A DNA stretch of 64,000 nt, taken from positions 349,990,001 to 350,054,000 of the forward strand of contig OZ024742.1 in assembly GCA_964016885.1 (NCBI GenBank). Reading direction: 5' to 3'. The position numbers and the translations under genes were made by a program. Source of the DNA: Eledone cirrhosa (taxonomy: Eukaryota). The notes beneath the pieces are model-generated. The model was given only the letters and a program-made list of their open reading frames with translations. It did no database searches and was not told the DNA's origin. Shown here in pieces: positions 1-57,862 of the stretch (within the stretch, counting starts at the first letter, position 1; each line of letters opens with the position of its first letter).

Positions 1-3000
1 GGCACTGTCGTATGTGTGTGAGTGGTCAGTGACATGGCACTGTCGTATGTGTGTGAGTGGTCAGTGACATGGTACTGTCGTTTGTGTGTAAGTGGTCAGT
101 GACATGGCACTGTCGTTTGTGTGTGAGTGGTCAGTGACATGGCACTGTCGTATGTGTGTAAGTGGTCAGTGACATGGCACTGTCGGTTGTGCGTGAGTGG
201 TCAGTGACATGGTACTGTCGTATGTGTGTGAGTGGTCAGTGACATGGTACTGTCGTTTGTGTGTAAGTGGTCAGTGACATGGTACTGTCGTTTGTGTGTG
301 AGTGGTCAGTGACATGGCACTGTCGTTTGTGTGTGAGTGGTCAGTGACATGGCACTGTCGTTTGTGTGTAAGTGGTCAGTGACATGGCACTGTCGTTTGT
401 GTGTGAGTGGTCAGTGACATGGCACTGTCGTATGTGTGTAAGTGGTCAGTGACATGGTACTGTCGTTTGTGTGTGAGTGGTCAGTGACATGGCACTGTCG
501 TATGTGTGTAAGTGGTCAGTGACATGGTACTGTCGTTTGTGTGTGAGTGGTCAGTGACATGGTACTGTCGTATGTGTGTAAGTGGTCAGTGACATGGTAC
601 TGTCGTTTGTGTGTGAGTGGTCAGTGACATGGTACTGTCGTATGTGTGTGAGTGGTCAGTGACATGGCACTGTCGTTTGTGTGTGAGTGGTCAGTGACAT
701 GGCACTGTCGTATGTGTGTGAGTGGTCAGTGACATGGCACTGTCGTATGTGTGTGAGTGGTCAGTGACATGGCACTGTCGTATGTGTGTGAGTGGTCAGT
801 GACATGGCACTGTCGTTTGTGTGTGAGTGGTCAGTGACATGGTACTGTCGTTTGTGTGTGAGTGGTCAGTGACATGGTACTGTCGTATGTGTGTGAGTGG
901 TCAGTGACATGGCACTGTCGTATGTGTGTGAGTGGTCAGTGACATGGCACTGTCGTATGTGTGTGAGTGGTCAGTGACATGGCACTGTCGTTTGTGTGTG
1001 AGTGGTCAGTGACATGGTACTGTCGTTTGTGTGTGAGTGGTCAGTGACATGGTACTGTCGTTTGTGTGTGAGTGGTCAGTGACATGGCACTGTCGTTTGT
1101 GTGTGAGTGGTCAGTGACATGGTACTGTCGTATGTGTGTAAGTGGTCAGTGACATGGCACTGTCGGTTGTGCGTGAGTGGTCAGTGACATGGTACTGTCG
1201 TATGTGTGTGAGTGGTCAGTGACATGGCACTGTCGTTTGTGTGTGAGTGGTCAGTGACATGGCACTGTCGTTTGTGTGTGAGTGGTCAGTGACATGGCAC
1301 TGTCGTTTGTGTGTGAGTGGTCAGTGACATGGTACTGTCGTTTGTGTGTGAGTGGTCAGTGACATGGCACTGTCGTATGTGTGTGAGTGGTCAGTGACAT
1401 GGCACTGTCGTTTGTGTGTGAGTGGTCAGTGACATGGCACTGTCGTTTGTGTGTGAGTGGTCAGTGACATGGTACTGTCGTTTGTGTGTGAGTGGTCAGT
1501 GACATGGCACTGTCGTTTGTGTGTGAGTGGTCAGTGACATGGTACTGTCGTATGTGTGTAAGTGGTCAGTGACATGGCACTGTCGGTTGTGCGTGAGTGG
1601 TCAGTGACATGGTACTGTCGTTTGTGTGTGAGTGGTCAGTGACATGGTACTGTCGTATGTGTGTAAGTGGTCAGTGACATGGTACTGTCGTTTGTGTGTG
1701 AGTGGTCAGTGACATGGTACTGTCGTTTGTGTGTGAGTGGTCAGTGACAGGGTACTGTCGTATGTGTGTGAGTGGTCAGTGACATGGCACTGTCGTATGT
1801 GTGTGAGTGGTCAGTGACATGGCACTGTCGTATGTGTGTAAGTGGTCAGTGACATGGCACTGTCGTATGTGTGTGAGTGGTCAGTGACATGGTACTGTCG
1901 TATGTGTGTAAGTGGTCAGTGACATGGCACTGTCGTTTGTGTGTGAGTGGTCAGTGACATGGCACTGTCGTATGTGTGTGAGTGGTCAGTGACATGGCAC
2001 TGTCGTATGTGTGTGAGTGGTCAGTGACATGGTACTGTCGTTTGTGTGTAAGTGGTCAGTGACATGGCACTGTCGTTTGTGTGTGAGTGGTCAGTGACAT
2101 GGCACTGTCGTATGTGTGTAAGTGGTCAGTGACATGGCACTGTCGTTTGTGTGTGAGTGGTCAGTGACATGGCACTGTCGTTTGTGTGTGAGTGGTCAGT
2201 GAGATGGTACTGTCGTTTGTGTGTGAGTGGTCAGTGACATGGCACTGTCGTATGTGTGTAAGTGGTCAGTGACATGGCACTGTCGTTTGTGTGTGAGTGG
2301 TCAGTGACATGGCACTGTCGTATGTGTGTAAGTGGTCAGTGACATGGCACTGTCGTTTGTGTGTGAGTGGTCAGTGACATGGCACTGTCGTATGTGTGTA
2401 AGTGGTCAGTGACATGGCACTGTCGTTTGTGTGTGAGTGGTCAGTGACATGGCACTGTCGTTTATGTGTGTGTGGTCAGTGAGATGGTACTGTCGTTTGT
2501 GTGTGTGTGGTCAGTGACATGGTACTGTCGTTTGTGTGTGAGTGGTCAGTGACATGGCACTGTCGTTTATGTGTGTGTGGTCAGTGACATGGTACTGTCG
2601 TTTGTGTGTGAGTGGTCAGTGACATGGCACTGTCGTATGTGTGTAAATGGTCATTGACATGGTACTGTTGTTTGTGTGTGAGTGGTCAGTGACATGGTAC
2701 TGTCGTATGTGTGTAAGTGGTCAGTGACATGGTACTGTCGTTTGTGTGTGAGTGGTCAGTGACATGGTACTGTCGTATGTGTGTGAGTGGTCAGTGACAT
2801 GGCACTGTCGTTTGTGTGTGAGTGGTCAGTGACATGGCACTGTCGTATGTGTGTAAGTGGTCATTGACATGGTACTGTCGTTTGTGTGTGAGTGGTCAGT
2901 GACATGGTACTGTCGTATGTGTGTGTGTGGTCAGTGTCATGGCACTGTCGTATGTGTGTGAGTGGTCAGTGACATGGCACTGTCGTATGTGTGTGAGTGG

Positions 3001-6000
3001 TCAGTGACATGGCACTGTCGTTTGTGTGTGAGTGGTCAGTGACATGGCACTGTCGTATGTGTGTAAGTGGTCAGTGACATGGCACTGTCGTATGTGTGTA
3101 AGTGGTCAGTGACATGGCACTGTCGTATGTGTGTGAGTGGTCAGTGACATGGTACTGTCGTTTGTGTGTGAGTGGTCAGTGACATGGCACTGTCGTATGT
3201 GTGTAAGTGGTCAGTGACATGGCACTGTCGTATGTGTGTGAGTGGTCAGTGACATGGCACTGTCGTTTGTGTGTGAGTGGTCAGTGACATGGCACTGTCG
3301 TATGTGTGTGAGTGGTCAGTGACATGGCACTGTCGTATGTGTGTGAGTGGTCAGTGACATGGCACTGTCGTTTGTGTGTAAGTGGTCAGTGACATGGCAC
3401 TGTCGTATGTGTGTAAGTGGTCAGTGACATGGTACTGTCGTATGTGTGTGAGTGGTCAGTGACATGGTACTGTCGTATGTGTGTGAGTGGTCAGTGACAT
3501 GGTACTGTCGTATGTGTGTAAGTGGTCAGTGACATGGTACTGTCGTATGTGTGTGAGTGGTCAGTGACATGGCACTGTCGTATGTGTGTGAGTGGTCAGT
3601 GACATGGCACTGTCGTATGTGTGTGAGTGGTCAGTGACATGGCACTGTCGTATGTGTGTAAGTGGTCAGTGACATGGCACTGTCGTATGTGTGTAAGTGG
3701 TCAGTGACATAGCACTGTCGTATGTGTGTAAGTGGTCAGTGACATGGTACTGTCGTTTGTGTGTGAGTGGTCAGTGACATGGTACTGTCGTTTGTGTGTG
3801 AGTGGTCAGTGACATGGTACTGTCGTTTGTGTGTGAGTGGTCAGTGACATGGTACTGTCGTTTGTGTGTGAGTGGTCAGTGACATGGTACTGTCGTTTGT
3901 GTGTGAGTGGTCAGTGACATGGTACTGTCGTATGTGTGTGAGTGGTCAGTGACATGGCACTGTCGTATGTGTGTGAGTGGTCAGTGACATGGCACTGTCG
4001 TATGTGTGTAAGTGGTCAGTGACATGGCACTGTCGTATGTGTGTGAGTGGTCAGTGACATGGCACTGTCGTTTGTTTGTGAGTGGTCAGTGACATGGCAC
4101 TGTCGTATGTGTGTGAGTGGTCAGTGACATGGCACTGTCGTATGTGTGTAAGTGGTCAGTGACATGGTACTGTCGTTTGTGTGTGAGTGGTCAGTGACAT
4201 GGTACTGTCGTATGTGTGTGAGTGGTCAGTGACATGGTACTGTCGTTTGTGTGTGAGTGGTCAGTGACATGGTACTGTCGTTTGTGTGTGAGTGGTCAGT
4301 GACATGGTACTGTCGTTTGTGTGTGAGTGGTCAGTGACATGGTACTGTCGTTCGTGTGTGAGTGGTCAGTGACATGGTACTGTCGTTTGTGTGTGAGTGG
4401 TCAGTGACATGGTACTGTCGTTTGTGTGTGAGTGGTCAGTGACATGGTACTGTCGTTTGTGTGTGAGTGGTCAGTGACATGGTACTGTCGTATGTGTGTG
4501 AGTGGTCAGTGACATGGCACTGTCGTTTGTGTGTGAGTGGTCAGTGACATGGCACTGTCGTTTGTGTGTGAGTGGTCAATGATATGGTACTGTCGTATGT
4601 GTGTGAGTGGTCAGTGACATGGCACTGTCGTTTGTGTGTGAGTGGTCAGTGACATGGCACTGTCGTTTGTGTGTAAGTGGTCAGTGACATGGTACTGTCG
4701 TTTGTGTGTGAGTGGTCATTGACATGACACTGTCGTTTGTGTGTAAGTGGTCAATGACATGGCACTGTCGTTTGTGTGTAAGTGGTCAGTGACATGGCTC
4801 TGTCGTTTGTGTGTGAGTGGTCAGTGACATGGTACTGTCTTTTGTGTGTGTGTGGTCACTGACATGGCACTGTCGTTTGTGTGTGAGTGGTCAGTGACAT
4901 GGCACTGTCGTTTGTGTGTAAGTGGTCAGTGACAGGGTACTGTCGTTTGTGTCTGAGTGGTCAGTGACATGGCACCGTCGTTTGTGTGTGAGTGGTCAGT
5001 GACATGGCACTGTCGTTTGTGTGTGAGTGGTCAGTGACATGGTACTGTCGTTTGTGTGTGTGTCCTCAGTGACATGGTACTGTCGTTTGTGTGTGAGTGG
5101 TCAGTGACATGGTACTGTCGTTTGTGTGTGTATGGTCAGTGACATGGTACTGTCGTATGTGTGTAAGTAGTCAGTGACATGGTACTGTCGTTTGTGTGTG
5201 AGTGGTCAGTGACATGGCACTGTCGTTTGTGTGTGAGTGGTCAGTGACATGACACTGTCGTTTGTGTGTGAGTGGTCAGTGACATGACACTCTCGTTTGT
5301 GTGTGAGTGGTCAGTGACATGCCACTGTCGTTTGTGTGTGTGTAGTCAGTGACATGGTACTGTCGTTTGTGTGTGAGTGGTCAGTGACATGCCACTGTCG
5401 TTTGTGTGTGAGTGGTCAGTGACATGACACTCTCGTTTGTGTGTGAGTGGTCAGTGACATGCCACTGTCGTTTGTGTGTGTGTAGTCAGTGACATGGTAC
5501 TGTCGTTTGTGTGTAAGTGGTCAGTGACATGGCACTGTCGTTTATGTGTGAGTGGTCAGTGACATGGCACTGTCGTTTGTGTGTGAGTGGTCAGTGACAT
5601 GGTACTGTCGTTTGTGTGTGAGTGGTCAGTGACATGGTACTGTCGTTTGTGTGTGAGTGGTCAGTGACATGGCACTGTCGTATGTGTGTGAGTGGTCAGT
5701 GACATGGTACTGTCGTATGTGTGTGAGTGGTCAGTGACATGGTACTGTCGTTTGTGTGTAAGTGGTCAGTGACATGGTACTGTCGTTTGTGTGTGAGTGG
5801 TCAGTGACATGGCACTGTCGTATGTGTGTAAGTGGTCAGTGACATGGCACTGTCGTTTATGTGTGAGTGGTCAGTGACATGGCACTGTCGTTTGTGTGTG
5901 AGTGGTCAGTGACATGGTACTGTCGTTTGTGTGTGAGTGGTCAGTGACATGGCACTGTCGTATGTGTGTAAGTGGTCAGTGACATGGCACTGTCGTTTAT

Positions 6001-9000
6001 GTGTGAGTGGTCAGTGACATGGCACTGTCGTTTGTGTGTGAGTGGTCAGTGACATGGCACTGTCGTTTGTGTGTGAGTGGTCAGTGACATGGCACTCGTT
6101 TGTGTGTGTGTGGTCAGTGACATGGTACTGTCGTTTGTGTGTGTGTGGTCAGTGACATGGTACTGTCGTTTGTGTGTGAGTGGTCAGTGACATGGCACTG
6201 TCGTATGTGTGTAAGTGGTCAGTGACATGGCACTGTCGTTTATGTGTGAGTGGTCAGTGACATGGCACTGTCGTTTGTGTGTGAGTGGTCAGTGACATGG
6301 TACTGTCGTATGTGTGTAAGTGGTCAGTGACATGGTACTGTCGTTTGTGTGTGAGTGGTCAGTGACATGGCACTGTCGTTTGTGTGTGAGTGGTCAGTGA
6401 CATGGCACTCGTTTGTGTGTGTGGTCAGTGACATGGCACTGTCGTTTGTGTGTAAGTGGTCAGTGACAGGGTACTGTCGTTTGTGTCTGAGTGGTCAGTG
6501 ACATGGCACCGTCGTTTGTGTGTGAGTGGTCAGTGACATGGCACTGTCGTTTGTGTGTGAGTGGTCAGTGACATGGTACTGTCGTTTGTGTGTGTGTCCT
6601 CAGTGACATGGTACTGTCGTTTGTGTGTGAGTGGTCAGTGACATGGTACTGTCGTTTGTGTGTGTATGGTCAGTGACATGGTACTGTCGTATGTGTGTAA
6701 GTAGTCAGTGACATGGTACTGTCGTTTGTGTGTGAGTGGTCAGTGACATGGCACTGTCGTTTGTGTGTGAGTGGTCAGTGACATGACACTGTCGTTTGTG
6801 TGTGAGTGGTCAGTGACATGACACTCTCGTTTGTGTGTGAGTGGTCAGTGACATGCCACTGTCGTTTGTGTGTGTGTAGTCAGTGACATGGTACTGTCGT
6901 TTGTGTGTGAGTGGTCAGTGACATGCCACTGTTGTTTGTGTGTGAGTGGTCAGTGACATGACACTCTCGTTTGTGTGTGAGTGGTCAGTGACATGCCACT
7001 GTCGTTTGTGTGTGTGTAGTCAGTGACATGGTACTGTCGTTTGTGTGTAAGTGGTCAGTGACATGGCACTGTCGTTTATGTGTGAGTGGTCAGTGACATG
7101 GCACTGTCGTTTGTGTGTGAGTGGTCAGTGACATGGTACTGTCGTTTGTGTGTGAGTGGTCAGTGACATGGTACTGTCGTTTGTGTGTGAGTGGTCAGTG
7201 ACATGGCACTGTCGTATGTGTGTGAGTGGTCAGTGACATGGTACTGTCGTATGTGTGTGAGTGGTCAGTGACATGGTACTGTCGTTTGTGTGTAAGTGGT
7301 CAGTGACATGGTACTGTCGTTTGTGTGTGAGTGGTCAGTGACATGGCACTGTCGTATGTGTGTAAGTGGTCAGTGACATGGCACTGTCGTTTATGTGTGA
7401 GTGGTCAGTGACATGGCACTGTCGTTTGTGTGTGAGTGGTCAGTGACATGGTACTGTCGTTTGTGTGTGAGTGGTCAGTGACATGGCACTGTCGTATGTG
7501 TGTAAGTGGTCAGTGACATGGCACTGTCGTTTATGTGTGAGTGGTCAGTGACATGGCACTGTCGTTTGTGTGTGAGTGGTCAGTGACATGGCACTGTCGT
7601 TTGTGTGTGAGTGGTCAGTGACATGGCACTCGTTTGTGTGTGTGTGGTCAGTGACATGGTACTGTCGTTTGTGTGTGTGTGGTCAGTGACATGGTACTGT
7701 CGTTTGTGTGTGAGTGGTCAGTGACATGGCACTGTCGTATGTGTGTAAGTGGTCAGTGACATGGCACTGTCGTTTATGTGTGAGTGGTCAGTGACATGGC
7801 ACTGTCGTTTGTGTGTGAGTGGTCAGTGACATGGTACTGTCGTTTGTGTGTGAGTGGTCAGTGACATGGCACTGTCGTATGTGTGTAAGTGGTCAGTGAC
7901 ATGGCACTGTCGTTTATGTGTGAGTGGTCAGTGACATGGCACTGTCGTTTGTGTGTGAGTGGTCAGTGACATGGCACTGTCGTTTGTGTGTGAGTGGTCA
8001 GTGACATGGCACTCGTTTGTGTGTGTGTGGTCAGTGACATGGTACTGTCGTTTGTGTGTGTGTGGTCAGTGACATGGTACTGTCGTTTGTGTGTGAGTGG
8101 TCAGTGACATGGCACTGTCGTTTGTGTGTGAGTGGTCAGTGACATGGCACTCGTTTGTGTGTGTGTGGTCAGTGACATGGCACTGTCGTTTGTGTGTAAG
8201 TGGTCAGTGACAGGGTACTGTCGTTTGTGTCTGAGTGGTCAGTGACATGGCACCGTCGTTTGTGTGTGAGTGGTCAGTGACATGGCACTGTCGTTTGTGT
8301 GTGAGTGGTCAGTGACATGGTACTGTCGTTTGTGTGTGTGTCCTCAGTGACATGGTACTGTCGTTTGTGTGTGAGTGGTCAGTGACATGGTACTGTCGTT
8401 TGTGTGTGTATGGTCAGTGACATGGTACTGTCGTATGTGTGTAAGTAGTCAGTGACATGGTACTGTCGTTTGTGTGTGAGTGGTCAGTGACATGGCACTG
8501 TCGTTTGTGTGTGAGTGGTCAGTGACATGACACTGTCGTTTGTGTGTGAGTGGTCAGTGACATGACACTCTCGTTTGTGTGTGAGTGGTCAGTGACATGC
8601 CACTGTCGTTTGTGTGTGTGTAGTCAGTGACATGGTACTGTCGTTTGTGTGTGAGTGGTCAGTGACATGCCACTGTTGTTTGTGTGTGAGTGGTCAGTGA
8701 CATGACACTCTCGTTTGTGTGTGAGTGGTCAGTGACATGCCACTGTCGTTTGTGTGTGTGTAGTCAGTGACATGGTACTGTCGTTTGTGTGTAAGTGGTC
8801 AGTGACATGGCACTGTCGTATGTGTGTGAGTGGTCAGTGACATGGTACTGTCGTATGTGTGTGAGTGGTCAGTGACATGGTACTGTCGTTTGTGTGTAAG
8901 TGGTCAGTGACATGGTACTGTCGTTTGTGTGTGAGTGGTCAGTGACATGGCACTGTCGTATGTGTGTAAGTGGTCAGTGACATGGCACTGTCGTTTATGT

Positions 9001-11204
9001 GTGAGTGGTCAGTGACATGGCACTGTCGTTTGTGTGTGAGTGGTCAGTGACATGGTACTGTCGTTTGTGTGTGAGTGGTCAGTGACATGGCACTGTCGTA
9101 TGTGTGTAAGTGGTCAGTGACATGGCACTGTCGTTTATGTGTGAGTGGTCAGTGACATGGCACTGTCGTTTGTGTGTGAGTGGTCAGTGACATGGCACTG
9201 TCGTTTGTGTGTGAGTGGTCAGTGACATGGCACTCGTTTGTGTGTGTGTGGTCAGTGACATGGTACTGTCGTTTGTGTGTGTGTGGTCAGTGACATGGTA
9301 CTGTCGTTTGTGTGTGAGTGGTCAGTGACATGGCACTGTCGTATGTGTGTAAGTGGTCAGTGACATGGCACTGTCGTTTATGTGTGAGTGGTCAGTGACA
9401 TGGCACTGTCGTTTGTGTGTGAGTGGTCAGTGACATGGTACTGTCGTATGTGTGTAAGTGGTCAGTGACATGGTACTGTCGTTTGTGCGTGAGTGGTCAG
9501 TGACATGGCACTGTCGTTTGTGTGTGAGTGGTCAGTGACATGGCACTCGTTTGTGTGTGTGTGGTCAGTGACATGGTACTGTCGTTTGTGTGTGTGTGGT
9601 CAGTGACATGGTACTGTCGTTTGTGTGTGAGTGGTCAGTGACATGGTACTGTCGTTTGTGTGTGAGTGGTCAGTGACATGGTACTGTCGTTTGTGTGTGA
9701 GTGGTCAGTGACATGGTACTGTCGGTTGTGTGTGTGTGGTCAGTGACATGGTACTGTCGTATGTGTGTAAGTGGTCAGTGACATGGCACTGTCGTTTGTG
9801 TGTGAGTGGTCAGTGACATGGTACTGTCGTTTGTGTGTGAGTGGTCAGTGACATGGTACTGTCGTTTCTGTGTGTGTGGTCAGTGACATGGCACTGTCGT
9901 TTCTGTGTGTGTGGTCAGTGACATGGCACTGTCGTTTGTGTGTGAGTGGTCAGTGACATGGCACTGTCGTTTCTGTGTGTGTGGTCAGTGACATGGCACT
10001 TTCGTTTGTGTGTGACTGGTCAGTGACATGGTACTCTCGTTTGTGTGTGTGTGGTCAGTGACATGGTACTGTCGTTTGTGTGTGTGTGGTCAGTGACATG
10101 GTACTGTCGTTTGTGTGTGAGTGGTCAGTGACATGGCACTGTCGTATGTGTGTGATTGGTCATTGACATGACACTGTCGTTTGTGTGTAAGTGGTCAGTG
10201 ACATGGCACTGTCGTTTGTGTGTGAGTGGTCAGTGACATGGTACTGTCGTTTGTGTGTAAGTGGTTAGTGACATGGTACTGTCGTTTGTGTGTGAGTGGT
10301 CAGTGACATGGTACTGTCGTTTGTGTGTGAGTGGTCAGTGACATGGTACTGTCGTTTGAGTGTGTGTGGTCAGTGACATGGTACTGTCGTTTGTGTGTGA
10401 GTGGTCAGTGACATGGTACTGTCGTTTGTGTGTGTGTGGTCAGTGACATGGTACTGTCGTTTGTGTGTGTGTGGTCAGTGACATGGCACTGTCGTTTGTG
10501 TGTGTGTGGTCAGTGACATGGCACTGTCGTTTGTGTGTGAGTGGTCAGTGACATGGCACTGTCGTTTGTGTGTCAGTGGTCAGTGACATGGTACTGTCGT
10601 TTGTGTGTGTGTGGTCAGTGACATGGCACTGTCGTTTGTGTGTGTGTGGTCAGTGACATGGCACTGTCGTTTGTGTGTGAGTGGTCAGTGACATGGCACT
10701 GTCGTTTGTGTGTCAGTGGTCAGTGACATGGCACTGTCGTTTGTGTGTGAGTGGTCAGTGACATGACACTGTCGTTTGTGTGTAAGTGGTCAGTGACATG
10801 GCACTGTCGTTTGTGTGTAAGTGGTCATTGACATGACACTGTCGTTTGTGTGTAAGTGGTCAGTGACATGGCACTGTCGTTTGTGTGTGAGTGGTCAGTG
10901 ACATGGTACTGTCTTTTGTGTGTGTGTGGTCAGTGTCATGGCACTGTCGTTTGTGTGTGAGTGGTCAGTGACATGGCACTGTCGTTTGTGTGTAAGTGGT
11001 CACTGACATGGTACTGTCGTTTGTGTCTGAGTGGTCAGTGACATGGTACTGTCGTTTGTGTGTGAGTGGTCAGTGACATGGTATTGTCGTTTCTGTGTGT
11101 GTGGTCAGTGACATGGCACTTTCGTTTGTGTGTGACTGGTCAGTGACATGGTACTATCGTTTGTGTGTGAATGTTCAGTGACATGGCACTGTCGTTTGTG
11201 TGTA
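1..11204. repeat. 35-bp tandem satellite/minisatellite, about 320 units, continuing past the window start
   Basis: Consensus GG(C/T)ACTGTCGT(A/T)TGTGTGT(G/A)AGTGGTCAGTGACAT repeats with period 35, with occasional 2-bp deletions. It ends abruptly at about 11204. Confidence 0.98.
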
Positions 11205-14457: not shown

Positions 14458-14496
<39 letters not shown>

Positions 14497-14528
14497 AGAT
14501 CAAAAGATGGTTAAAGGAGTTCAATATA

Positions 14529-14595
14529 TTTTATTATGCGCATTTCAAAAACAAACATCATCAAACAATAATATTTGTGTTTTCATCAGATAAAA
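14529..14595 (-). ncRNA. Type I hammerhead ribozyme in the PLE 3' pLTR
   Basis: Minus strand: TTTTAT CTGATGA [AAAC ACAAATATTAT TGTTTG ATGATGTTTGT TTTT] GAAA TGCGCA TA|ATAAAA, with palindromic stem III TGCGCA. Confidence 0.85.
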
Positions 14596-15844
14596 CAGGA
14601 GAACATGATATGAAGGCTAAAAAAACACTTGTTGATAGTGCAGTTTTAAATCAACATATGAAAAGTGGTTTTAGATTGATGTGTGATATTGGGAAAAATA
14701 TTTTATTTAGAGAGGGGGGAGAGAAAAGGATGAAAAGGGAAGGAGATGAGAGGGAGAGATGGGTGATAGAGAGAAAGAGATAGTTTTTATAACAGAGAGG
14801 AGATATATTTTATATAGAGGGGTTGAAAACCGTTGGAAGATACTGTATAAATTAAAAATTTTGAAAATTAACGAAGGGGGGATATGTGCGAGGAAAAAAT
14901 ATATTATATTTAGGGAGGGGTGGGGGTGGAAAGGATGAAAAAAAGGGAGGAGATGAGAGTGAAGGTGGAAAGGGAGAGATGGGTGATAGAGAGAAAGAGA
15001 TAGTTTTTATAACTGAGAAAAAGATATAATGTTTTAATATAGAGAGGTTGGGAACCGTTGGAAGATAATGTATAAATTAAAGGAATTTGAAAATTAACGA
15101 AGGGAAATTATGTATGGAGATAGAGAGAAACAAATAATAACGAAGGGAGATTATGTATGGAGATAGAGAGAAAAAAATAATAATTGTGGGTGAATATTCT
15201 AACGTCAAAAGGAGAAATGTAGGAATTTTAAAATTAGCAAAGAGAAAAAGTTTGTGTAGAAGGATTTGAGAAAAAATAATGTGAAGTTAAAGTTTTTATA
15301 TTGAATTCATATGTATTAATAATGAGTTCGTTGATGGGGAGAAAAAAATAATAATAAATTAAGGATGAAATTGAGATTAAAAAGATTTATGATAGAGAGA
15401 AAAAAAATAATAATGATTGCGGATGAATACTCAAAATGTCAAAAACAAATGTTATTGTTTTACGAGGAGATATAATGAGGGTGATGAGTAAACGGGTATT
15501 ATAGAGTGTATAATGCCCTTTAAAGTAAGGTAGATGGGTATATTTTAAAGAATATATGAGTATATATTAAGAAAATATATAATAATAAATTAAGGATGAA
15601 ATTGAGATTAAAAAGATTTATGATAGAGGGAAAAAAAAAAAAAAAAAAAAAAAATAATAATGATTGCGGATGAATATTCAAAATGTCAAAAACAAATGTT
15701 ATTGTTTTACGAGAAGATAGGATGAGTAAACGAGTATTATAGAGTGTATAATGCCCTTTAAAGTAAGGTAGATGGGTATATTTTAAAGAGGTGTATGTAT
15801 ATGTGCCTTTGAGAAAAGATTCTAAATTGATAAAGAATTGAATA

Positions 15845-17590
15845 TTAACTGTATACTTTGTGAAAAGTTCTATGGAATTTATGCAGGCAGATGGAAAACA
15901 AATCCGAGCGTCTATTTATTATGGATTCTAGGTTAGAGATAATGGTAAATTTTTCATTTAGGCAGAGATTACAGATTTTAGATAGAGAACTGTTCAAGTA
16001 CGAGGATGCAGAAGAAATCTTTTTCCAAAAGATGTTATATTTAATGTTTTTGTCTTTTAAGGACCATATGAGTTCTGAGAGAGCAGTGTTAGTTCTTTTA
16101 AGTTTGTATTTGAAAGATGAATGATGATTATAGAGACGAGCTTTAAAAGAGGTGGAAGTGGAGCCAAAATAGGTGAAGGAATTGGTGCTAGTTATAATTT
16201 TACATTCATAAATTAAGTTTTTATCGAGGCAATGGTTGTTGAGAGGACATTTATTTTTAATGCGGCAGTTGCAATTAGAGAGATTATTAATGAGTGATCT
16301 AGTGTTATCTATAGAAGGAATTGGATTGGAGAAGTTGTTTGCGATAGGAATAATAGGAATAATAGTTTCTTGATTTAGAGTTGGATTATGAACATTTAGC
16401 GAAGTTGTGTTTGACGTTGCATTTGGGTTTACAGAAGTTAGCCTAGGGTTTACAATGACGTCAGGAGTACTATTATTGTTATTATGAGATTCAATATTGG
16501 AAGGAAGAGATTTAGTATTTAATATTTTGTTGTTGTGTTTAGAAATGATGTTGGAAATATTGGAGGATGTAGAATACGAAAATTTGATGGTGTGTTTGTT
16601 AAATATTTTACTATAGATATGTGAGGGAGGGAAGCATTTATTTAAGGCACTAAAAAATAATTTAGGAATATTGTTATTAATAGAGATGGAGAAAGGAGCA
16701 TTATACCAGATTATGTTTTTGTATCTAGGTCTTTTATTAAAATTATTGGAATGGTTATGATTAAATATTCTACTGTAAGTTTTCCTAGAATTTGTTTCTT
16801 TATTATATTTGATTTTATCTGGATAGCCGGCTTTAGAAAGTGCGTTATTATAGTAATTGGCGTTAGCATCAAAGATGTTTTTATTAGAAGATATGTTAGA
16901 TATTCTATTTCCAATATTATTAACTATAGCATTCTTGATATTGGTAGGATGGTTAGATTTAAAGTTAACATAATTAAGATTCTCATTGTTTTTATGGTAA
17001 GGGTAATATAGGCCAGTGTCAAGATTAAGAGATACATCCAAGAAATTAGCTAGTTTGGTACTATTATCAAATTCAATTTTTAGGTTATGTTGGTTAAAGA
17101 GATTACGTATATTGTTCTTAATAATATTAAGTTTAACTATATTGCAATTTAGGATAGTAAAGAGTCCATCGTCACGATACATTCCACCGCGGAGTTGAGG
17201 AATTTTCCGACTCAAAGAGTTCGAAATGAAGATACCAATTAAATCAGTCAATTGGGATGAATCGGATGCTCCCATTGTGATGTCGAAGTTGTTAGAGGTA
17301 TCGGCTCTGGTCCAATATTCGTTGTTGAACTCTAGGATGGTTTTACGTGCGGTGAGGATGATGTGAAGTTCATCTGTGGTGATGTCAGAATATTTAAGTG
17401 CGAAAGATAGAGCATTATTGAGAAGTGAAGGCGAAATGGAGGAATAGTAGCTGGCAATATCGAATTGAATAAATTTTAGTTTGTTTTTATTATCCAATTT
17501 GTTGAACCAGCCAATCACTTCAGAAGTACCAAACCATAAATTTAGGTTTAAAGAAGAGCAATTAGAACTAACCTGTGGGATAATCGCATT
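15845..17590 (-). CDS. PLE reverse transcriptase / GIY-YIG endonuclease ORF, 5'-truncated but uninterrupted
   Basis: RT motifs FIQFDIASYY, ITMGASDS and YRDDGL; Cys linker CNCR..CPL..CL; LIYEC..TYFGST..FKARLYNH; ICNLCLNEK. The frame stays open upstream of 17518 (NLWFGTSEVIGWF) up to the inversion junction. Confidence 0.93.
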   Translation of the reverse strand, partial: NAIIPQVSSNCSSLNLNLWFGTSEVIGWFNKLDNKNKLKFIQFDIASYYSSISPSLLNNALSFALKYSDITTDELHIILTARKTILEFNNEYWTRADTSNNFDITMGASDSSQLTDLIGIFISNSLSRKIPQLRGGMYRDDGLFTILNCNIVKLNIIKNNIRNLFNQHNLKIEFDNSTKLANFLDVSLNLDTGLYYPYHKNNENLNYVNFKSNHPTNIKNAIVNNIGNRISNISSNKNIFDANANYYNNALSKAGYPDKIKYNKETNSRKTYSRIFNHNHSNNFNKRPRYKNIIWYNAPFSISINNNIPKLFFSALNKCFPPSHIYSKIFNKHTIKFSYSTSSNISNIISKHNNKILNTKSLPSNIESHNNNNSTPDVIVNPRLTSVNPNATSNTTSLNVHNPTLNQETIIPIIPIANNFSNPIPSIDNTRSLINNLSNCNCRIKNKCPLNNHCLDKNLIYECKIITSTNSFTYFGSTSTSFKARLYNHHSSFKYKLKRTNTALSELIWSLKDKNIKYNIFWKKISSASSYLNSSLSKICNLCLNEKFTIISNLESIINRRSDLFSICLHKFHRTFHKVYS

Positions 17591-17731
17591 GAAATGCGCA
17601 TAATAAAATATATTGAACTCCTTTAACCATCTTTTGATCTTATATTATGCATACTCCAGTCCCACAAACTGTAGAGTGCTTCTTATCCGATATCTGCATT
17701 GCTTTATTGTACTACAATAAAACTCACCTCC

Positions 17732-17772
<41 letters not shown>

Positions 17773-20949: not shown

Positions 20950-21110
20950 ATAACGAAGGAATTGTGGTAAGGAACCAGATGGACCATAACGCACCAGAGT
21001 ATTCAATACTTAGAGTAGTAGATAGGGTAATATGAAAAGATATGACCCCGACGGCAGAGCTCAAGCCGTTTCGACGGCTATTTTTAGACTAAATTAAAAT
21101 TTTTAGCCTG
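20950..21110. mobile_element. Family A tail, interrupted by the 5' end of an R4-type LINE
   Basis: AAGGAACCAGATGGACCATAACGCACCAGAGTA..GAGCTCAAGCCGTTTCGACGGCTATT matches 11530-11645. Confidence 0.75.
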
Positions 21111-21124
21111 TTAACAGAGTACTG

Positions 21125-23260
21125 GATATTTTTGATGTCGGGTGAGGTATCAGAGTGGTTGACAAAAGGTACCACAGTCCTGGTAATGAAAGACCGAATC
21201 AAGGGTAATGATGTTACCAACAATAGACCTACCACATGTCTATCCGTAATGTGGAAACTGTTAACAAGCATTATGTCTGAGGAAACCTACCATCACCTCC
21301 ACACAAACAACTTGTTACCGGACGAACAGAATGGATGCCCAAAGAAGTCCCGTGGTACAAAAGACCAGCTACTTATTGATAAGATGGTAATGAGGATGTG
21401 CAAGAGGAGGCACACTGGTCTTGCCATGGGATGAATAGACTACAAAAAGACATTCGACATGGTACCTCATTCTTGGATAACCAAAAGCCTAGAGATCTTC
21501 AAGGTGGCAGATAACATCAGACAGTTGTTGAGCAAAAGTATGAAGTCCTGGGAAACAGAATTAACATCGAGTGAAGATGGAGAATCCTTGGGAGGAGTGA
21601 AAATCAAGAGGGAGATAGTCTGTCCCCTCTGTTGTTTGTCCTTGCCCTGATACCCCTGACCATTATATTGCGAAATGTGAGAGCAGGATACAAGTTGGGA
21701 AAAGGAGAGCGTACCATCAACCACCTCCTCTTCATGGACGATCTGAAACTCTTTGGGAAAAGTGAGAAGGAGTTGGATGTACTTATTGACACTGTCCGTA
21801 TTTTCAGCTGTGATATATGTATGCAATTTGGTATTAATAAGTTTGGAGTTCTAGTGATGAAGAGGGGTAAATTGAGCAGAAGCAACGGAATCCAGGTACC
21901 AACAGGTGAGATGATAAAGAAATTGACACTGAAGAAGGATACAAATATTTCGGTGTTCTGGAGGCAGATGACATCAAGAACAAAAAAATGAAGGAATTGA
22001 TAAGATCTGAGTACATTAGGAGAGTAAGGAGCGTATTAAAATCACATCTAAATAGTAGGAGTGTCATAAGTGCAGTGAATTCCCGAGCTGTGTCTATTAT
22101 TAGGTACAGTGCGAGAATTCTGAAATGGAATGTTGCTGAACAAAAAGAAATGGATAGGAAGACTAGGAAGCTATTGACTATCTACGACATGTTACACAAG
22201 AGGAGTGATGTCGATAGACTCTACTTAAAGAGATCTGAAGGTGGAAGAGGTCTTATCAGCATAGAGGATTGTGTTCAGATGGAGAAAAACAACCTGCACA
22301 AATACGGGACTGACAGTAGGGAGCCAATGCTCAGAATGGTACTGAAGGAGAGAAAAATAGACCAGGGGATGTACAAGGAGGAAATAACAACAAGGAGGAA
22401 GACCAACCTTCATGAAAAATCCCTTCATAGTACCTTCTTTGAGAAAACTGAATTTAGAGATCCACAGACATGGAACTGGTTAAAAAGAGGAGACATTAAA
22501 AAGGCTACAGAAGGAATGCTAATGGCTGCGCAAGAGCAGGCACTCAAAACGAAGTGAGTGAAACACCATATTTACAAGGTGGAGGCTAGCCCACTATGTA
22601 GGATCTGTGGAGAGAGAGAGGAAACTGTGGCTCACATTGTATCCGAGTGTAAACACCTAGCCCAGACTCACTATAAAGGCTGGAGAGATGATGTGATGGG
22701 CAGGGTGATCCACTGTCACCTATGCAAAGTAAACAATTTACCACATTCTGAGAAGTGGTATGAGCATAAGCCAGAGTCGGTGATAGAAAACGATCAGGTG
22801 AAGGTGCTATGGGATTTTAGGATACAGACGGATAAGAAACTGGAACACAATAGGCCTGACCTGGTGGTTTTGGACAAGGAAAAAAGATCATGCCAGATTG
22901 TAGATGTAGCCTGCGCATTCGACACGAGAGTGCAAGAAAAGGAGAGGGAGAAAATTAACCGATACCAAGACTTAACGTGGGAGGTAAAAAGGATTTGGAA
23001 CTGCCATGAAGTCAGAGTCGTCCCGATTGTCATAGGCGCATTAGGTACTATCTCAAAGAGTTTCCAAAGATGGTTAAAGAAAGTTAGTCCAGCCTCGCTT
23101 TTTGGAACACTTCAAAAGGCATGCTTGCTGGGAACAGCAAAAACCCTCCGATACGTCCTGAATATCTGAGGCTACAGGTAGTGGCTTGATATTCATTTCA
23201 ACAAATTTTCCAGTTAAATAACATCAATGACTGAGACTCAAAGAACAATAACAATAGTAA
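21125..23260 (+). pseudogene. 5'-truncated, decayed R4/Dong-clade non-LTR retrotransposon (RT + CCHC + restriction-like endonuclease)
   Basis: RPTTCLS, EQNGC..SRGTKDQLLID, DYKKTFDMVPH, HLLFMDDLKL, CRICGEREETVAHIVSEC and HNRPDLVVLD..IVDVAC. Stops and frameshifts split it into several ORFs. The 3' end runs into (TAA)n. Confidence 0.9.
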
Positions 23261-24280: not shown

Positions 24281-24483
24281 ATGTAAATATACATAGCATC
24301 TCTCTCGCTCTTTATATATATATATATATAAATATAGATTTTGAGTTTATGTTGGTTGTATACCAACACCTCAGTATGCAGCTGGAGCACTCGACGAAGT
24401 GCGCAGGTTGGTTTGGTTACTCCGGAGTAGTGTAAAATAAAGTTAAATAAAAGTGAAATGTTTAAAATTTAGCTTCGTTTATT

Positions 24484-24538
24484 ACTGCTATATATATTTC
24501 AGTGACATCCATCTTTGGCTGTAACCTCTTCAGGCAGT
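24484..24538 (-). ncRNA. Type I hammerhead ribozyme (left-arm copy)
   Basis: ACTGC CTGAAGA GGTTACAGCC AAAGAT GGATGTCACT GAAA TATATA TA|GCAGT. Confidence 0.75.
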
Positions 24539-24654
24539 TCGAATTAGTGTGGTATAGACAAGTAGATATGTTGTTGAGGTGTATAATTTTGTCAATATTG
24601 ACAAAATTATACACCTCAACAACATATGTACTTGTCTATACCACACTAATTCAG

Positions 24655-24709
24655 ACTGCCTGAAGAGGTCACAGCCAAAGATGGCTGTCACCGAAATATA
24701 TATAGCAGT
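24655..24709 (+). ncRNA. Type I hammerhead ribozyme (right-arm copy)
   Basis: ACTGC CTGAAGA GGTCACAGCC AAAGAT GGCTGTCACC GAAA TATATA TA|GCAGT, followed by AATAAA. Confidence 0.85.
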
Positions 24710-24782
24710 AATAAACGAAGCTAAATTTTAAACATTTGACTTATTTATTTTACTTTATTTTATATATAAATATATATCTATA

Positions 24783-30119: not shown

Positions 30120-33911
<3,792 letters not shown>

Positions 33912-34412
33912 TTAGGAACAGTTTAGGTATGATACATTTTATTACTAATTATATCTAAATGTTTCTTCTCTCTTCATAATGTATTTTTAACTCTGATACT
34001 GGTTCAGTCTGGTTCAAACTGAATTGGTCTGTCCCAGTCATTCATTGAGCAACATCGGTGAAGTTGGCACCCTTAACTCACAGTTGGGTGCGGGTGCATT
34101 CATGTATATATGTGTGTGTCCGCATGTATCTGTGTGTTTCTAAATGTATTATTAACTCCCTCTGGTCGAGCAACCTTTGAAGTGTGGGGACAACTGGAAA
34201 GCTTCCATTACTCATACTTCTCGCCTTCTTCACTACCTCTTCTACGGCCTCGATATGAATACCCCCTCCGCCTCTGTGGTATTTTTTTCGTGGTTATAAG
34301 AGGCTTAGCTCTGTTTCTCGACCGTTATATCGCGTGACTATCTCCCCCTCCGCCTTTTGGGATTCTTTCTCACGTCGTGTAGACGCGTTCTTGAGACTAG
34401 TAAAATGAGGTA

Positions 34413-34500
34413 TCCTCTTGATAAGTCGGCAGACCTCGCAAGGACTCTATATCTTTGATATATTGTTTTTGTTTATGCCACGAAACTACGTAGTCGAGGA
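34413..34500 (+). ncRNA. Type I hammerhead ribozyme, U3-A8 core variant, copy 1
   Basis: TCCTC TTGATAA [GTCGGCA...TGCCAC] GAAA CTACGTAG TC|GAGGA, with predicted cleavage after 34495. Confidence 0.8.
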
Positions 34501-35003
34501 ATTTAGGAACAGTTTAGGTATGATACATTTTATTACTAATTATATCTAAATGTTTCTTCTCTCTTCATAATGTATTTTTAACTCTGATACTGGTTCAGTC
34601 TGGTTCAAACTGAATTGGTCTGTCCCAGTCATTCATTGAGCAACATCGGTGAAGTTGGCACCCTTAACTCACAGTTGGGTGCGGGTGCATTCATGTATAT
34701 ATGTGTGTGTCCGCATGTATCTGTGTGTTTCTAAATGTATTATTAACTCCCTCTGGTCGAGCAACCTTTGAAGTGTGGGGACAACTGGAAAGCTTCCATT
34801 ACTCATACTTCTCGCCTTCTTCACTACCTCTTCTACGGCCTCGATATGAATACCCCCTCCGCCTCTGTGGTATTTTTTTCGTGGTTATAAGAGGCTTAGC
34901 TCTGTTTCTCGACCGTTATATCGCGTGACTATCTCCCCCTCCGCCTTTTGGGATTCTTTCTCACGTCGTGTAGACGCGTTCTTGAGACTAGTAAAATGAG
35001 GTA

Positions 35004-35091
35004 TCCTCTTGATAAGTCGGCAGACCTCGCAAGGACTCTATATCTTTGATATATTGTTTTTGTTTATGCCACGAAACTACGTAGTCGAGGA
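35004..35091 (+). ncRNA. Type I hammerhead ribozyme, U3-A8 core variant, copy 2
   Basis: Same sequence as copy 1, offset by 591. Confidence 0.8.
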
Positions 35092-35594
35092 ATTTAGGAA
35101 CAGTTTAGGTATGATACATTTTATTACTAATTATATCTAAATGTTTCTTCTCTCTTCATAATGTATTTTTAACTCTGATACTGGTTCAGTCTGGTTCAAA
35201 CTGAATTGGTCTGTCCCAGTCATTCATTGAGCAACATCGGTGAAGTTGGCACCCTTAACTCACAGTTGGGTGCGGGTGCATTCATGTATATATGTGTGTG
35301 TCCGCATGTATCTGTGTGTTTCTAAATGTATTATTAACTCCCTCTGGTCGAGCAACCTTTGAAGTGTGGGGACAACTGGAAAGCTTCCATTACTCATACT
35401 TCTCGCCTTCTTCACTACCTCTTCTACGGCCTCGATATGAATACCCCCTCCGCCTCTGTGGTATTTTTTTCGTGGTTATAAGAGGCTTAGCTCTGTTTCT
35501 CGACCGTTATATCGCGTGACTATCTCCCCCTCCGCCTTTTGGGATTCTTTCTCACGTCGTGTAGACGCGTTCTTGAGACTAGTAAAATGAGGTA

Positions 35595-35682
35595 TCCTCT
35601 TGATAAGTCGGCAGACCTCGCAAGGACTCTATATCTTTGATATATTGTTTTTGTTTATGCCACGAAACTACGTAGTCGAGGA
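35595..35682 (+). ncRNA. Type I hammerhead ribozyme, U3-A8 core variant, copy 3
   Basis: Same sequence as copy 1, offset by 1182. Confidence 0.8.
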
Positions 35683-35938
35683 ATTTAGGAACAGTTTAGG
35701 TATGATACATTTTATTACTAATTATATCTAAATGTTTCTTCTCTCTTCATAATGTATTTTTAACTCTGATACTGGTTCAGTCTGGTTCAAACTGAATTGG
35801 TCTGTCCCAGTCATTCATTGAGCAACATCGGTGAAGTTGGCACCCTTAACTCACAGTTGGGTGCGGGTGCATTCATGTATATATGTGTGTGTCCGCATGT
35901 ATCTGTGTGTTTCTAAATGTATTATATATATATATATG

Positions 35939-36014
<76 letters not shown>

Positions 36015-36101
36015 CATATATATATATACATATATATATATATACATATATATATATACATATATATATATACATATATATATATACATATATATATATA
36101 C

Positions 36102-36176
<75 letters not shown>

Positions 36177-36210
36177 TATATACATATATATATATACATA
36201 TATATACATA

Positions 36211-36292
<82 letters not shown>

Positions 36293-36482: not shown

Positions 36483-37056
36483 ACAAAATGTTTTATAAAT
36501 ATTTGACATGACCAAGGATAATATACCTTAACGGTTCAAGTTATCCCTGGATAACTTATTCAAGTTATTCCAGGGATAATTTTAATATTTATTTTTGATT
36601 TCTAATTTTTAATTTTAATCTAATTTTTCAACCTATCATTATAAATATTATAATCACAACGTTATGAACCCTACATTATAAATACTATTCTTCCACGTTA
36701 ATCTTATTTCTTCTTTCACTTCTTTCACTTAGATATATTTACGCTGTGTATATTTCTCCATTGATACTTATTTCTTCATTCACTCTATCTTCACTATCAC
36801 TATGTATAATCGTTCTTTATTTCCCCTTCTCTCTTTCTCCTTTCTTTTTCTCTCTCTCCCTTACATATCATCTTCTTCCAACAGTTTAATTTAAATAAAC
36901 CGTTATCTTTTCAACCTTTCGGACACTCATTTGCATACTCACTCATAACTTTATATCACCCTCAATAAAATATTATCTCCACTATCCAGGAAGCTCCAAC
37001 CGTTAAGGTTGTCTTTTTCCCGGGTATGTCAATATTTATTTATAAAACAAATCTGT

Positions 37057-37120
37057 ATTTTATCTGATGAAAGCGCACCATAATTTGCCTTGGTTGCCCT
37101 TGAAATATGTATAATAAAAT
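37057..37120 (+). ncRNA. Type I hammerhead ribozyme
   Basis: ATTTTAT CTGATGA AAGCGCACCA..TGGTTGCCCTT GAAA TATGTA TA|ATAAAAT, with a 7-bp stem I. Confidence 0.78.
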
Positions 37121-46924: not shown

Positions 46925-47072
46925 TTGTTTCTACTTTTTGGCACAAGGCCAGCAATTATCCCAGTGTATTACTGCTACTTTATTTTATCGACTCCGTAAG
47001 GATGAAAGGCAAAGTTAACCTTGACGTAACTATGCTAGAAAGCATGGCGTCTGACCCTCTAACGATACTGCC
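46925..47072 (-). mobile_element. tRNA-derived SINE with an internal deletion
   Basis: GGCACAAGGCCAGCAATT..GGATGAAAGGCAAAGTTAACCT..GACCCTCTAACGATACTGCCA. Confidence 0.8.
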
Positions 47073-47084
47073 ATGGCTTTGGTA

Positions 47085-47660
47085 GTGACGGTGACCATGG
47101 AGACGATGGGGGTAATGATGATGACGGTGACCATGGAGACGATGGGGGTAATGATGATGACGGTGACCATGGAGACGATGGGTGTAATGATGATGATGAC
47201 GGTAACCATGGAGACGATGGGTGTAATGATGATGATGATGAGGGTGACCATGGAGACGATGGAGGTAATGATGATGATGATGATGATGATGATGAGGGTG
47301 ACCATGGAGACGATGGGGGTAATGATGATGATGATGATGATGATGATGAGGGTGACCATGGATACGATGGGTGTAATGATGATGATGAGGGTGACCATGG
47401 AGACGATGGAGGTAATGATGATGATGATGATGATGAGGGTGACCATGGAGACGATGGGGGTAATGATGATGATGATGATGATGATGAGGGTGACCATGGA
47501 GACGATGGGTGTAATGATGATGATGACGGTAACCATGGAGACGATGGGTGTAATGATGATGATGATGAGGGTGACCATGGAGACGATGGAGGTAATGATG
47601 ATGATGATGATGGTGAGGGTGACCATGGAGACGGTGGATGTAATGATGATGATGATGATG
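47085..47660. repeat. Compound minisatellite GTGACCATGGAGACGATGG(G/A)(G/T)GTA(ATG)n
   Basis: About 14 units with variable (ATG)n length. Confidence 0.92.
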
Positions 47661-47714
47661 AAAATATAGGTTTCTGATTTAGGCACAAGGCCAACAATTT
47701 CATTTGTTACACTT

Positions 47715-57663: not shown

Positions 57664-57862
57664 GGTAAGTTATTCCGGGTTGAATCGGAGGTAGCCACAG
57701 TAAGTAAGGTACTCAATACATAGCAGAGTATAAAAGTTTTAAGATAGATGAGATTCTACAGGACTAGAACTGTTTCATTCTTGAGAAATCATCATATTCC
57801 TGATGATTTCTCAAGAATGAAACAGTTCTAGTCCTGTAGAATCTCATCTATATTAAAACTAT
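57664..57862. mobile_element. Asymmetric fold-back with an HHR core at the junction
   Basis: Arms about 57735-57794 and 57801-57860. Plus strand CTGATGA TTTC TCAA GAAT GAAA CAG TT at 57800-57827. Confidence 0.85.

What the first reader, a model, noticed from the sequence alone, without database searches (positions are those of the whole stretch)
34413..34500. Non-canonical HHR: compensatory U3-A8 core, branched helix II, 10-nt palindromic stem III
Seen: the core is UUGAUAA instead of CUGAUGA, so both partners of the 3-8 tertiary pair changed together. The 57-nt helix II domain is closed by GU(C)GGCA/UGCCAC and contains sub-hairpins CCT-CGCA-AGG and TATATC-TTT-GATATA. Stem III ACTACGTAGT is self-complementary. 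Known: the C3-G8 pair tolerates covariation, and palindromic stem III allows dimeric HHR cleavage in PLE ribozymes. Inference: covariation argues for selected activity, and adjacent tandem units could cleave as a double hammerhead. Standard CUGANGA searches would miss it.
Basis: partly seen in the sequence, partly recalled or inferred. Interest (0 to 1): 0.75.

Follow-up and report, generated by a model that had tools for sequence, protein, structure and literature searches.

The report
Pseudoknotted hammerhead in Penelope-spread retrozyme
This is a predicted self-cutting hammerhead RNA, repeated in thousands of copies of a protein-free jumping element in an animal genome; its unusual core pair is already known, but it is likely braced by a pseudoknot, and the element likely borrows the copying enzyme of a Penelope retrotransposon.

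Summary
The motif is real: a type I hammerhead (U3-A8 core, cut predicted after 34495) in each 591-bp unit of a 3.4-unit array in (TA)n, one of about 7,500 copies. U3-A8 is published, also for Penelope-like elements (PLEs). It does not covary in this family (6,307 U-A, no C-G). A sister lineage shows C-G, U·G and U-A as successive clades, so the swap was likely stepwise. Helix II is not branched: it is one rod. Dimer cleavage is plausible but untested. Insertions have two fixed 3' ends, one per arm (59 of 62). A start hairpin is shared with an intact 821-aa PLE, a copy of which lies in this window. No RNA data; activity is inferred. The scan found the two-armed pattern, U3-A8 and wobble cores, and a PLE-shared start signal before, on other DNA of this genome. 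A word search of scan notes did not return the pseudoknot.

The parts
33912..35925 (+). Single-armed insertion of the non-coding element: 3.4 identical 591-bp units; 5' end 6-8 nt after the predicted cut site, 3' end at start site B
34406..34500 (+). Type I hammerhead, copy 1 (with the 5' pseudoknot strand)
34997..35091 (+). Hammerhead copy 2, identical
35588..35682 (+). Hammerhead copy 3, identical
34406..34411 (+). Predicted pseudoknot, 5' strand (pairs with 34433-34438)
   Evidence: inferred from covariation
34413..34417 (+). Stem I 5' strand (pairs with 34496-34500); one pair is U-A 29, U·G 9, C-G 8 of 47
34418..34424 (+). Core positions 3-9 with U3 (34418) and A8 (34423)
34425..34481 (+). 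Helix II: 2+4 bp base with bulged C, asymmetric internal loop carrying the pseudoknot strand, then an unbranched rod 34439-34471
34433..34438 (+).
34482..34495 (+). G12-A15, 10-nt palindromic stem III, C17; cut predicted 3' of 34495
34575..34575 (+). Fixed 3' end A of family copies (+80 from the cut): inferred reverse-transcription start site
34740..34762 (+). Fixed 3' end B (+245 to +250), followed by a small hairpin motif (34747-34762) shared with an autonomous PLE
33734..33911 (.). (TA)n target, left flank
35923..36292 (.). (TA)n target, right flank
14490..17735 (-). 5'-truncated, two-armed copy of the candidate autonomous partner (Penelope-like ORF 15845-17644, canonical hammerhead core at 14589); ends approximate

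Best explanation
The motif is a type I hammerhead fold, predicted to self-cleave and likely braced by a 6-bp pseudoknot, carried once per unit by a 591-bp non-coding element that likely uses a Penelope-like retrotransposon's enzyme to spread into TA microsatellites. Working model. (1) A tandem locus is transcribed (inferred; no RNA data). (2) The ribozyme cuts after C34495, with the pseudoknot docking stems I and II in place of loop-loop contacts, possibly helped by stem III pairing between two units (inferred). (3) Unit-length RNA is likely ligated to a circle (inferred). (4) The PLE protein nicks (TA)n on both strands and starts copying at site A from one DNA end and at site B from the other, guided by small hairpins just 3' of each site (end positions shown, mechanism inferred). 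(5) Copying runs on through the cut site, giving homogeneous, 5'-truncated, head-to-head arms (structure shown).
For: Fold: descriptor hit, 0 of 3,000 shuffles. 92% of 1,356 cells are paired in 47 distinct copies (mostly older), and stem I shows U-A 29, U·G 9, C-G 8. Lineage-shared changes hit 3 of 56 ribozyme positions vs 77 of 457 others, P=0.03; two of the three are that compensated pair. Core pair: in the sister lineage, the first 100 of 132 matches are C-G 71, U·G 20, U-A 7, C×A 1, U×C 1, arranged as clades. Pseudoknot: 95% paired in this family; over three lineages 99% paired, end pairs U-A 8/U·G 12/C-G 6 and U-A 8/U·G 13/C-G 5; precedent and kinetic need in PMC3088659. Element: 7,458 exact 23-mers. 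187 of 203 arms end at A or B, and 176 of those 187 abut (TA)3+. Of 76 head-to-head insertions, 62 have both ends at A or B: 59 A+B, 2 A+A, 1 B+B (P=2e-14). Units within an insertion differ by a median of 0.38% vs 2.16% between insertions; 12 of 35 carry private variants in all overlapping units. Partner: an 821-aa ORF family with copies 98-99% identical has two fixed ends in (TA)n, one per arm in 3 of 3 visible pairs, and the same site-B hairpin motif. Two internal start sites on both strands are shown in vitro for a lizard PLE (PMC11167929).
Against: No cleavage or expression data. 5' ends of arms do not pile up at the cut site: 12 at -26..-1, 17 at +1..+25, 12 at +26..+45. Core plus stem III alone are not significantly more conserved (1 of 21 vs 77 of 457, P=0.22). 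A first version of the test, with edge artefacts, gave P=0.14. The pseudoknot has no double change within this family; the 26 rows were hand-picked, and the C-G rows were found with a pattern that demanded its four central pairs. RNAalifold did not recover the hammerhead fold. One two-armed insertion carries a U3×U8 mismatch in both units. PLE hammerheads are slow in vitro (PMC4209133), dispensable for insertion in vitro (PMC11167929), and 8 of 9 Xenopus retrozyme dimers did not cleave (10.64898/2026.07.22.740005). The start-hairpin pattern was defined after seeing the sequences. The partner ORF has no Pfam or PDB match, so its PLE identity rests on recalled motifs and on architecture, and other PLE families were not screened.
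Confidence: 0.75

Rival explanations
1. Obligate double hammerhead: stem III forms only between two units, each core cutting the other unit's site, so that single units and circles are protected from cleavage.
For: The palindrome alone does not fold, its duplex is -12.9 kcal/mol, and stem III pair probability is 0.11 in the monomer. Perfect 10- or 12-nt palindromes with different centres and arms occur across lineages. A mismatch core was copied in both units of one insertion. Dimer precedent: PMC4209133, PMC7229834, review PMC6765202.
Against: 3 bp plus a 4-nt loop exceeds the 2 bp plus tetraloop that PMC7229834 calls similar to invertebrate hammerheads, and its coral monomer cleaves efficiently. 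Part of the sister lineage has imperfect 13-nt stems. The pseudoknot could stabilise the monomer. Compatible with the best explanation as an added mode.
Confidence: 0.4
2. The fold is kept but cuts rarely or not at all. The element is copied from uncut read-through multimers, and the structure serves as a protein-binding or stability element or hitchhikes.
For: No 5' end pile-up at the cut; 66 of 203 arms exceed one unit; U·G lineages and one U×U insertion spread; catalytic mutants did not affect lizard PLE insertion in vitro.
Against: Catalytic positions carry no lineage-shared change; C×A never forms a lineage; private variants shared by all units and both arms point to a unit-length bottleneck.
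Confidence: 0.17
3. A DNA-level satellite with a chance or dead hammerhead-like motif, homogenised by unequal crossover or gene conversion.
For: Tandem units are identical; the fold is not unusually stable; no Rfam match.
Against: Dispersed short arrays with fixed 3' ends, variable 5' ends, head-to-head arms and a (TA)n target; compensatory stem changes.
Confidence: 0.03

Closest known systems
Metazoan non-LTR retrozymes (PMC7229834, passages read; bioRxiv 10.64898/2026.07.22.740005, parts 1-3 of 5 read)
   Same: Non-coding tandem units, one type I hammerhead each, thousands of copies, GC under 45%, proposed PLE dependence
   Different: 591-nt unit (published range 51-972, about 300 typical), 57-nt helix II with a predicted pseudoknot, U3-A8 core; two-armed insertions with one fixed end each; circles not shown here
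PLE terminal-repeat hammerheads, including the U3-A8 variant of Schistosoma Cercyon elements (PMC4209133, parts 1-2 of 4 read)
   Same: Type I, 5-bp helix I, large helix II with a bulge, palindromic helix III, U3-A8
   Different: Much longer helix II and palindrome; no ORF linked to this unit in the loci read; predicted pseudoknot
Pseudoknotted hammerheads and natural U3-A8 cores (PMC3088659, passages and section 8 read)
   Same: A base-paired contact between stem I and stem II regions, about 40% of representatives; U3-A8 seen in nature and active in vitro
   Different: Here the contact uses an internal loop of an extended helix II in a high-copy animal retroelement; a natural U3·G8 lineage is not mentioned in the passages read
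Penelope-like element insertion structure (PMC11167929, parts 1-2 of 4; PMC8557442, passages)
   Same: Two internal start sites, tail at one end only, inverted 5'-truncated arm, (TA)n preference
   Different: Start sites 165-170 nt apart rather than 30-40; no encoded protein

Membership tests
Type I hammerhead ribozyme | Core 3-9, GAAA, A15.1-U16.1, H17 and three helices in type I order | tested here: met
   U3-A8 is an accepted core variant
Type I hammerhead ribozyme | 3-8 Watson-Crick pair kept by covariation | tested here: met
   No variation within the family; C-G, U·G, U-A across sister lineages
Type I hammerhead ribozyme | [quoted passage not shown] | tested here: inconclusive
   Pseudoknot predicted; end pairs covary across lineages but not within the family
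Type I hammerhead ribozyme | Match to an Rfam hammerhead model | tested here: not met
   none at E<=10; the oversized helix II is a likely cause; a library match is not a defining trait
Type I hammerhead ribozyme | Self-cleavage 3' of H17 | not testable with these tools
   Needs an assay; 5' ends of copies give no indirect mark
Dimer-cleaving PLE-type hammerhead | Palindromic helix III too weak as a monomer, units in tandem | tested here: inconclusive
Non-LTR retrozyme | Tandem non-coding units, each with a type I hammerhead, dispersed at high copy | tested here: met
   (longest stop-free frame 86 aa)
Non-LTR retrozyme | Expressed as unit-length linear and circular RNA | not testable with these tools
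   No RNA run listed; homogeneity within insertions is indirect only
Non-autonomous Penelope-like element | PLE footprint: two fixed internal 3' ends, inverted 5'-truncated arm, microsatellite target | tested here: met
Non-autonomous Penelope-like element | Sequence shared with an autonomous partner | tested here: inconclusive
   Only a 16-17-nt hairpin motif at the second end is shared; pattern defined post hoc; other PLE families not screened

The most novel reading that the evidence does not exclude
These retrozyme lineages use a pseudoknot-docked, oversized hammerhead whose tertiary brace let the catalytic 3-8 pair walk between C-G and U-A through a transposing U·G stage. One Penelope enzyme complex copies the resulting RNA circle from both ends of a (TA)n break at two hairpin-marked sites, and a 17-nt hairpin is the signal that licenses any RNA for this. 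That gives a natural allelic series for core tolerance and a minimal cis signal for PLE mobilisation in trans.
Probability: 0.4. Interest if true: 0.7.

Novelty: new variant of a known kind. Interest (0 to 1): 0.45.

Why it matters
The headline feature, U3-A8 with a palindromic stem III, is in print, so the finding as written is a modest one. The surroundings add more. How animal retrozymes move, and whether PLE hammerheads cut in vivo, are stated as open in PMC8557442, PMC11167929 and the 2026 preprint. This family supplies named start sites, a candidate enzyme with intact copies, a short shared hairpin, and natural C-G, U·G and U-A alleles in one scaffold, so these questions become directly testable. 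It also shows that descriptor and Rfam searches undercount ribozyme-bearing repeats by thousands per genome. Within this scan most of the element-level pattern was already noted on other families of the same genome; the pseudoknot and the correction of helix II are what this locus adds.

Tried and rejected
DNA search of the own genome with the 141-bp motif found nothing, because common words are skipped; exact patterns were used instead. Rfam scans: window-wide, the 150 listed of 278 hits are microsatellite-driven miRNA matches; locally there is no hammerhead. RNAalifold consensus gave an alternative, non-hammerhead pairing. An apparent pile-up of arm 5' ends just after the cut (26 of 203 in the first 20 nt) was a BLAST edge artefact and vanished on refinement; the window's own 5' end 6-8 nt after the cut is therefore not evidence. 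The first conservation test had edge misalignment and was redone. A search for relatives with a short helix II gave 8 matches against 2 in the control: deletion copies, apparent chance hits, one unexamined hammerhead-like hit and the sister family. No RNA holder was listed. In one search one run of unknown kind holds the unit as a single 621-letter closed contig at low depth; trace DNA of a high-copy repeat explains this as well as an RNA circle, so it is not used. Runs X2 and X4 (one sample, possibly the source) show the same two (TA)n junctions and are not counted as independent. Lünse et al. (dimer paper) and Przybilski and Hammann (3-8 exchanges) could not be read; what they show is taken from a review passage or not used. 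No measured rate for a U3·G8 core was found. Supplements of the cited papers were not opened and may list similar pseudoknotted or cephalopod motifs.

Full report
Observation. The window holds a type I hammerhead pattern at 34413-34500: 5-bp stem I, core UUGAUAA, a 57-nt helix II domain, GAAA, a 10-nt perfect palindrome and a GUC site. My descriptor found it in 0 of 3,000 shuffles of the unit. Rfam gives no hammerhead match locally. It occurs three times in an array of 3.4 identical 591-bp units (33912-35925) between two (TA)n tracts. The unit has no stop-free frame over 86 codons.

Family. An exact 23-mer matches 7,458 times in the 3.0-Gb own genome, control 0. I read 162 loci, mostly the first-listed matches on contig C1, so this is not a random sample; 135 distinct complete insertions remained. 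Older subfamilies at 75-90% identity were collected with an anchor outside the ribozyme (701 matches).

Helix II is a rod. The alignment holds 47 older-anchored copies plus the window; 4 of 51 rows with truncated or chimeric 5' halves were dropped. In it the rod segments are 88-96% paired, with many one-sided and a few two-sided changes. Stem I shows U-A 29, U·G 9, C-G 8 at one pair. RNAalifold alone did not recover the fold, and the fold's energy is unremarkable.

The 3-8 pair. Within the family there is no covariation: 6,307 U3-A8, 14 non-U3 copies all A8, 15 non-A8 copies all U3. A sister lineage with the same build was found through its stem III (24 matches), and then its C3-G8 branch (47 matches; about 78-87% identical to the first). 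A pattern neutral at both positions gave 132 matches. By my hand count the 100 listed are C-G 71, U·G 20, U-A 7, C×A 1, U×C 1 (Fisher P=5e-4, not corrected for ancestry). In a 68-row tree, 24 U·G, 8 U-A and 1 A·G rows form one branch (100/99), with 6 U-A rows nested in it (100/91). The tree is unrooted and its bootstrap had not settled. The swap was therefore likely stepwise through a wobble that itself spread; the direction is unknown, and this tree does not include the window's family. U3-A8 is published for natural hammerheads (PMC3088659 section 8) and for PLEs (PMC4209133).

Pseudoknot. In this family they are 95% paired without double changes. Across 26 hand-picked rows of three lineages they are 99% paired, the two end pairs being U-A, U·G or C-G. 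The C-G rows were selected with a pattern containing the central four pairs, so only the U·G lineage and the end pairs are independent support. Such contacts are common in hammerheads and raise rates strongly (PMC3088659). Paper searches for retrozyme with pseudoknot or cephalopod (listings only) and a word search of scan notes showed no description of this one; supplements were not checked.

Selection. Lineage-shared changes fall on 3 of 56 ribozyme positions vs 77 of 457 others in 49 older copies (P=0.03). Two of the three are the compensated stem I pair; the third is a CpG transition in the palindrome centre. Core plus stem III alone give P=0.22. Against strict need: one insertion has U3×U8 in both units.

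Dimer question. The palindrome does not fold alone and pairs with a second copy at -12.9 kcal/mol. Perfect palindromes of different sequence recur in the sister lineages, but some C-G copies have imperfect 13-nt stems. Dimer cleavage is known for PLE and amphibian hammerheads. It is plausible here but not shown.

How the element moves. 187 of 203 arms end at +72..86 (A) or +236..254 (B) after the cut site, and 176 of those 187 run into (TA)n. 76 of 135 insertions are head-to-head pairs. Of 62 with both ends at A or B, 59 have one of each; 14 others have at least one end elsewhere. 66 of 203 arms exceed one unit. Units within an insertion differ by a median of 0.38% against 2.16% between insertions (nearest neighbours 0.54%), and 12 of 35 multi-unit young insertions carry private variants in every overlapping unit. 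This fits copying round a unit-length template. 5' ends are not enriched at the cut. This is the PLE footprint: two internal starts used on both strands in vitro (PMC11167929), and a tail at one end with an inverted truncated arm (PMC8557442). A truncated copy of an 821-aa ORF family with near-identical intact copies lies at 15845-17644. I call it a PLE from recalled RT and GIY-YIG motifs and from its architecture; library searches were blank. It has two fixed ends 88 nt apart, one per arm in 3 of 3 visible pairs. Just 3' of its second end lies a hairpin motif also found 3' of site B and of the sister lineage's second end: in 94 of 162, 26 of 74 and 14 of 30 loci, chance 0.01 per window. The pattern was defined after the fact, following leads from scan notes e1-8805697 and e1-10309686.

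Verdict. This is a real and probably active hammerhead, in a known kind of element (non-LTR retrozyme, working like a non-autonomous PLE). The new points are the predicted pseudoknot with an unbranched rod, the stepwise core series and the shared start hairpin; the scan had noted the last two on other DNA of this genome. New variant of a known kind; interest 0.45.

Noticed in passing
window 14490-17735: Two-armed, 5'-truncated copy of a young Penelope-like family (821-aa ORF, 73 copies scored, 98-99% identical apart from the window's own) with a canonical hammerhead at 14589 (-) and two fixed ends 88 nt apart; candidate partner.
   Followed up: partly
window 24390-24780: Head-to-head pair of canonical-pair hammerheads (cores 24533 - and 24660 +, 8-nt AT palindrome) around a long inverted repeat: another small two-armed element.
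   Followed up: no
window 37056-37120: Single canonical type I hammerhead (core 37064 +), similar in build to the PLE one at 14589.
   Followed up: no
window 57770-57830: Self-complementary stretch that passes the loose descriptor on both strands with a U3-A8-like core; probably an inverted-repeat artefact.
   Followed up: no
L163-L236: Sister retrozyme lineage (132 exact core-region matches) with C-G, U·G and U-A cores, GUC or GUA cut triplets, and several palindrome variants.
   Followed up: yes
L267:1750-2760: Two-armed insertion whose two ribozyme copies both carry a U3×U8 mismatch core; may reflect rescue by a partner in a dimer or copying of uncut RNA.
   Followed up: partly
L047:1500-1550: Hammerhead-like C3-G8 motif with a short helix II, a 10-nt palindrome and a similar stem I 3' strand; family not examined.
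   Followed up: no
L048, L049, L050: Family copies with 22-24-nt deletions in the helix II rod; in L049/L050 both tandem units carry the deletion, so the rod may be partly dispensable.
   Followed up: no
window 1-11203: 35-bp satellite, 320 copies, 94% matches, strong GC skew.
   Followed up: no
window 31657-33490 and 21093-23169: Decayed LINE reverse-transcriptase fragments (RVT_1 hit at 31657-32181).
   Followed up: no
window 47030-47700: Mixed 36-54-bp trinucleotide-rich minisatellite, open in several frames.
   Followed up: no
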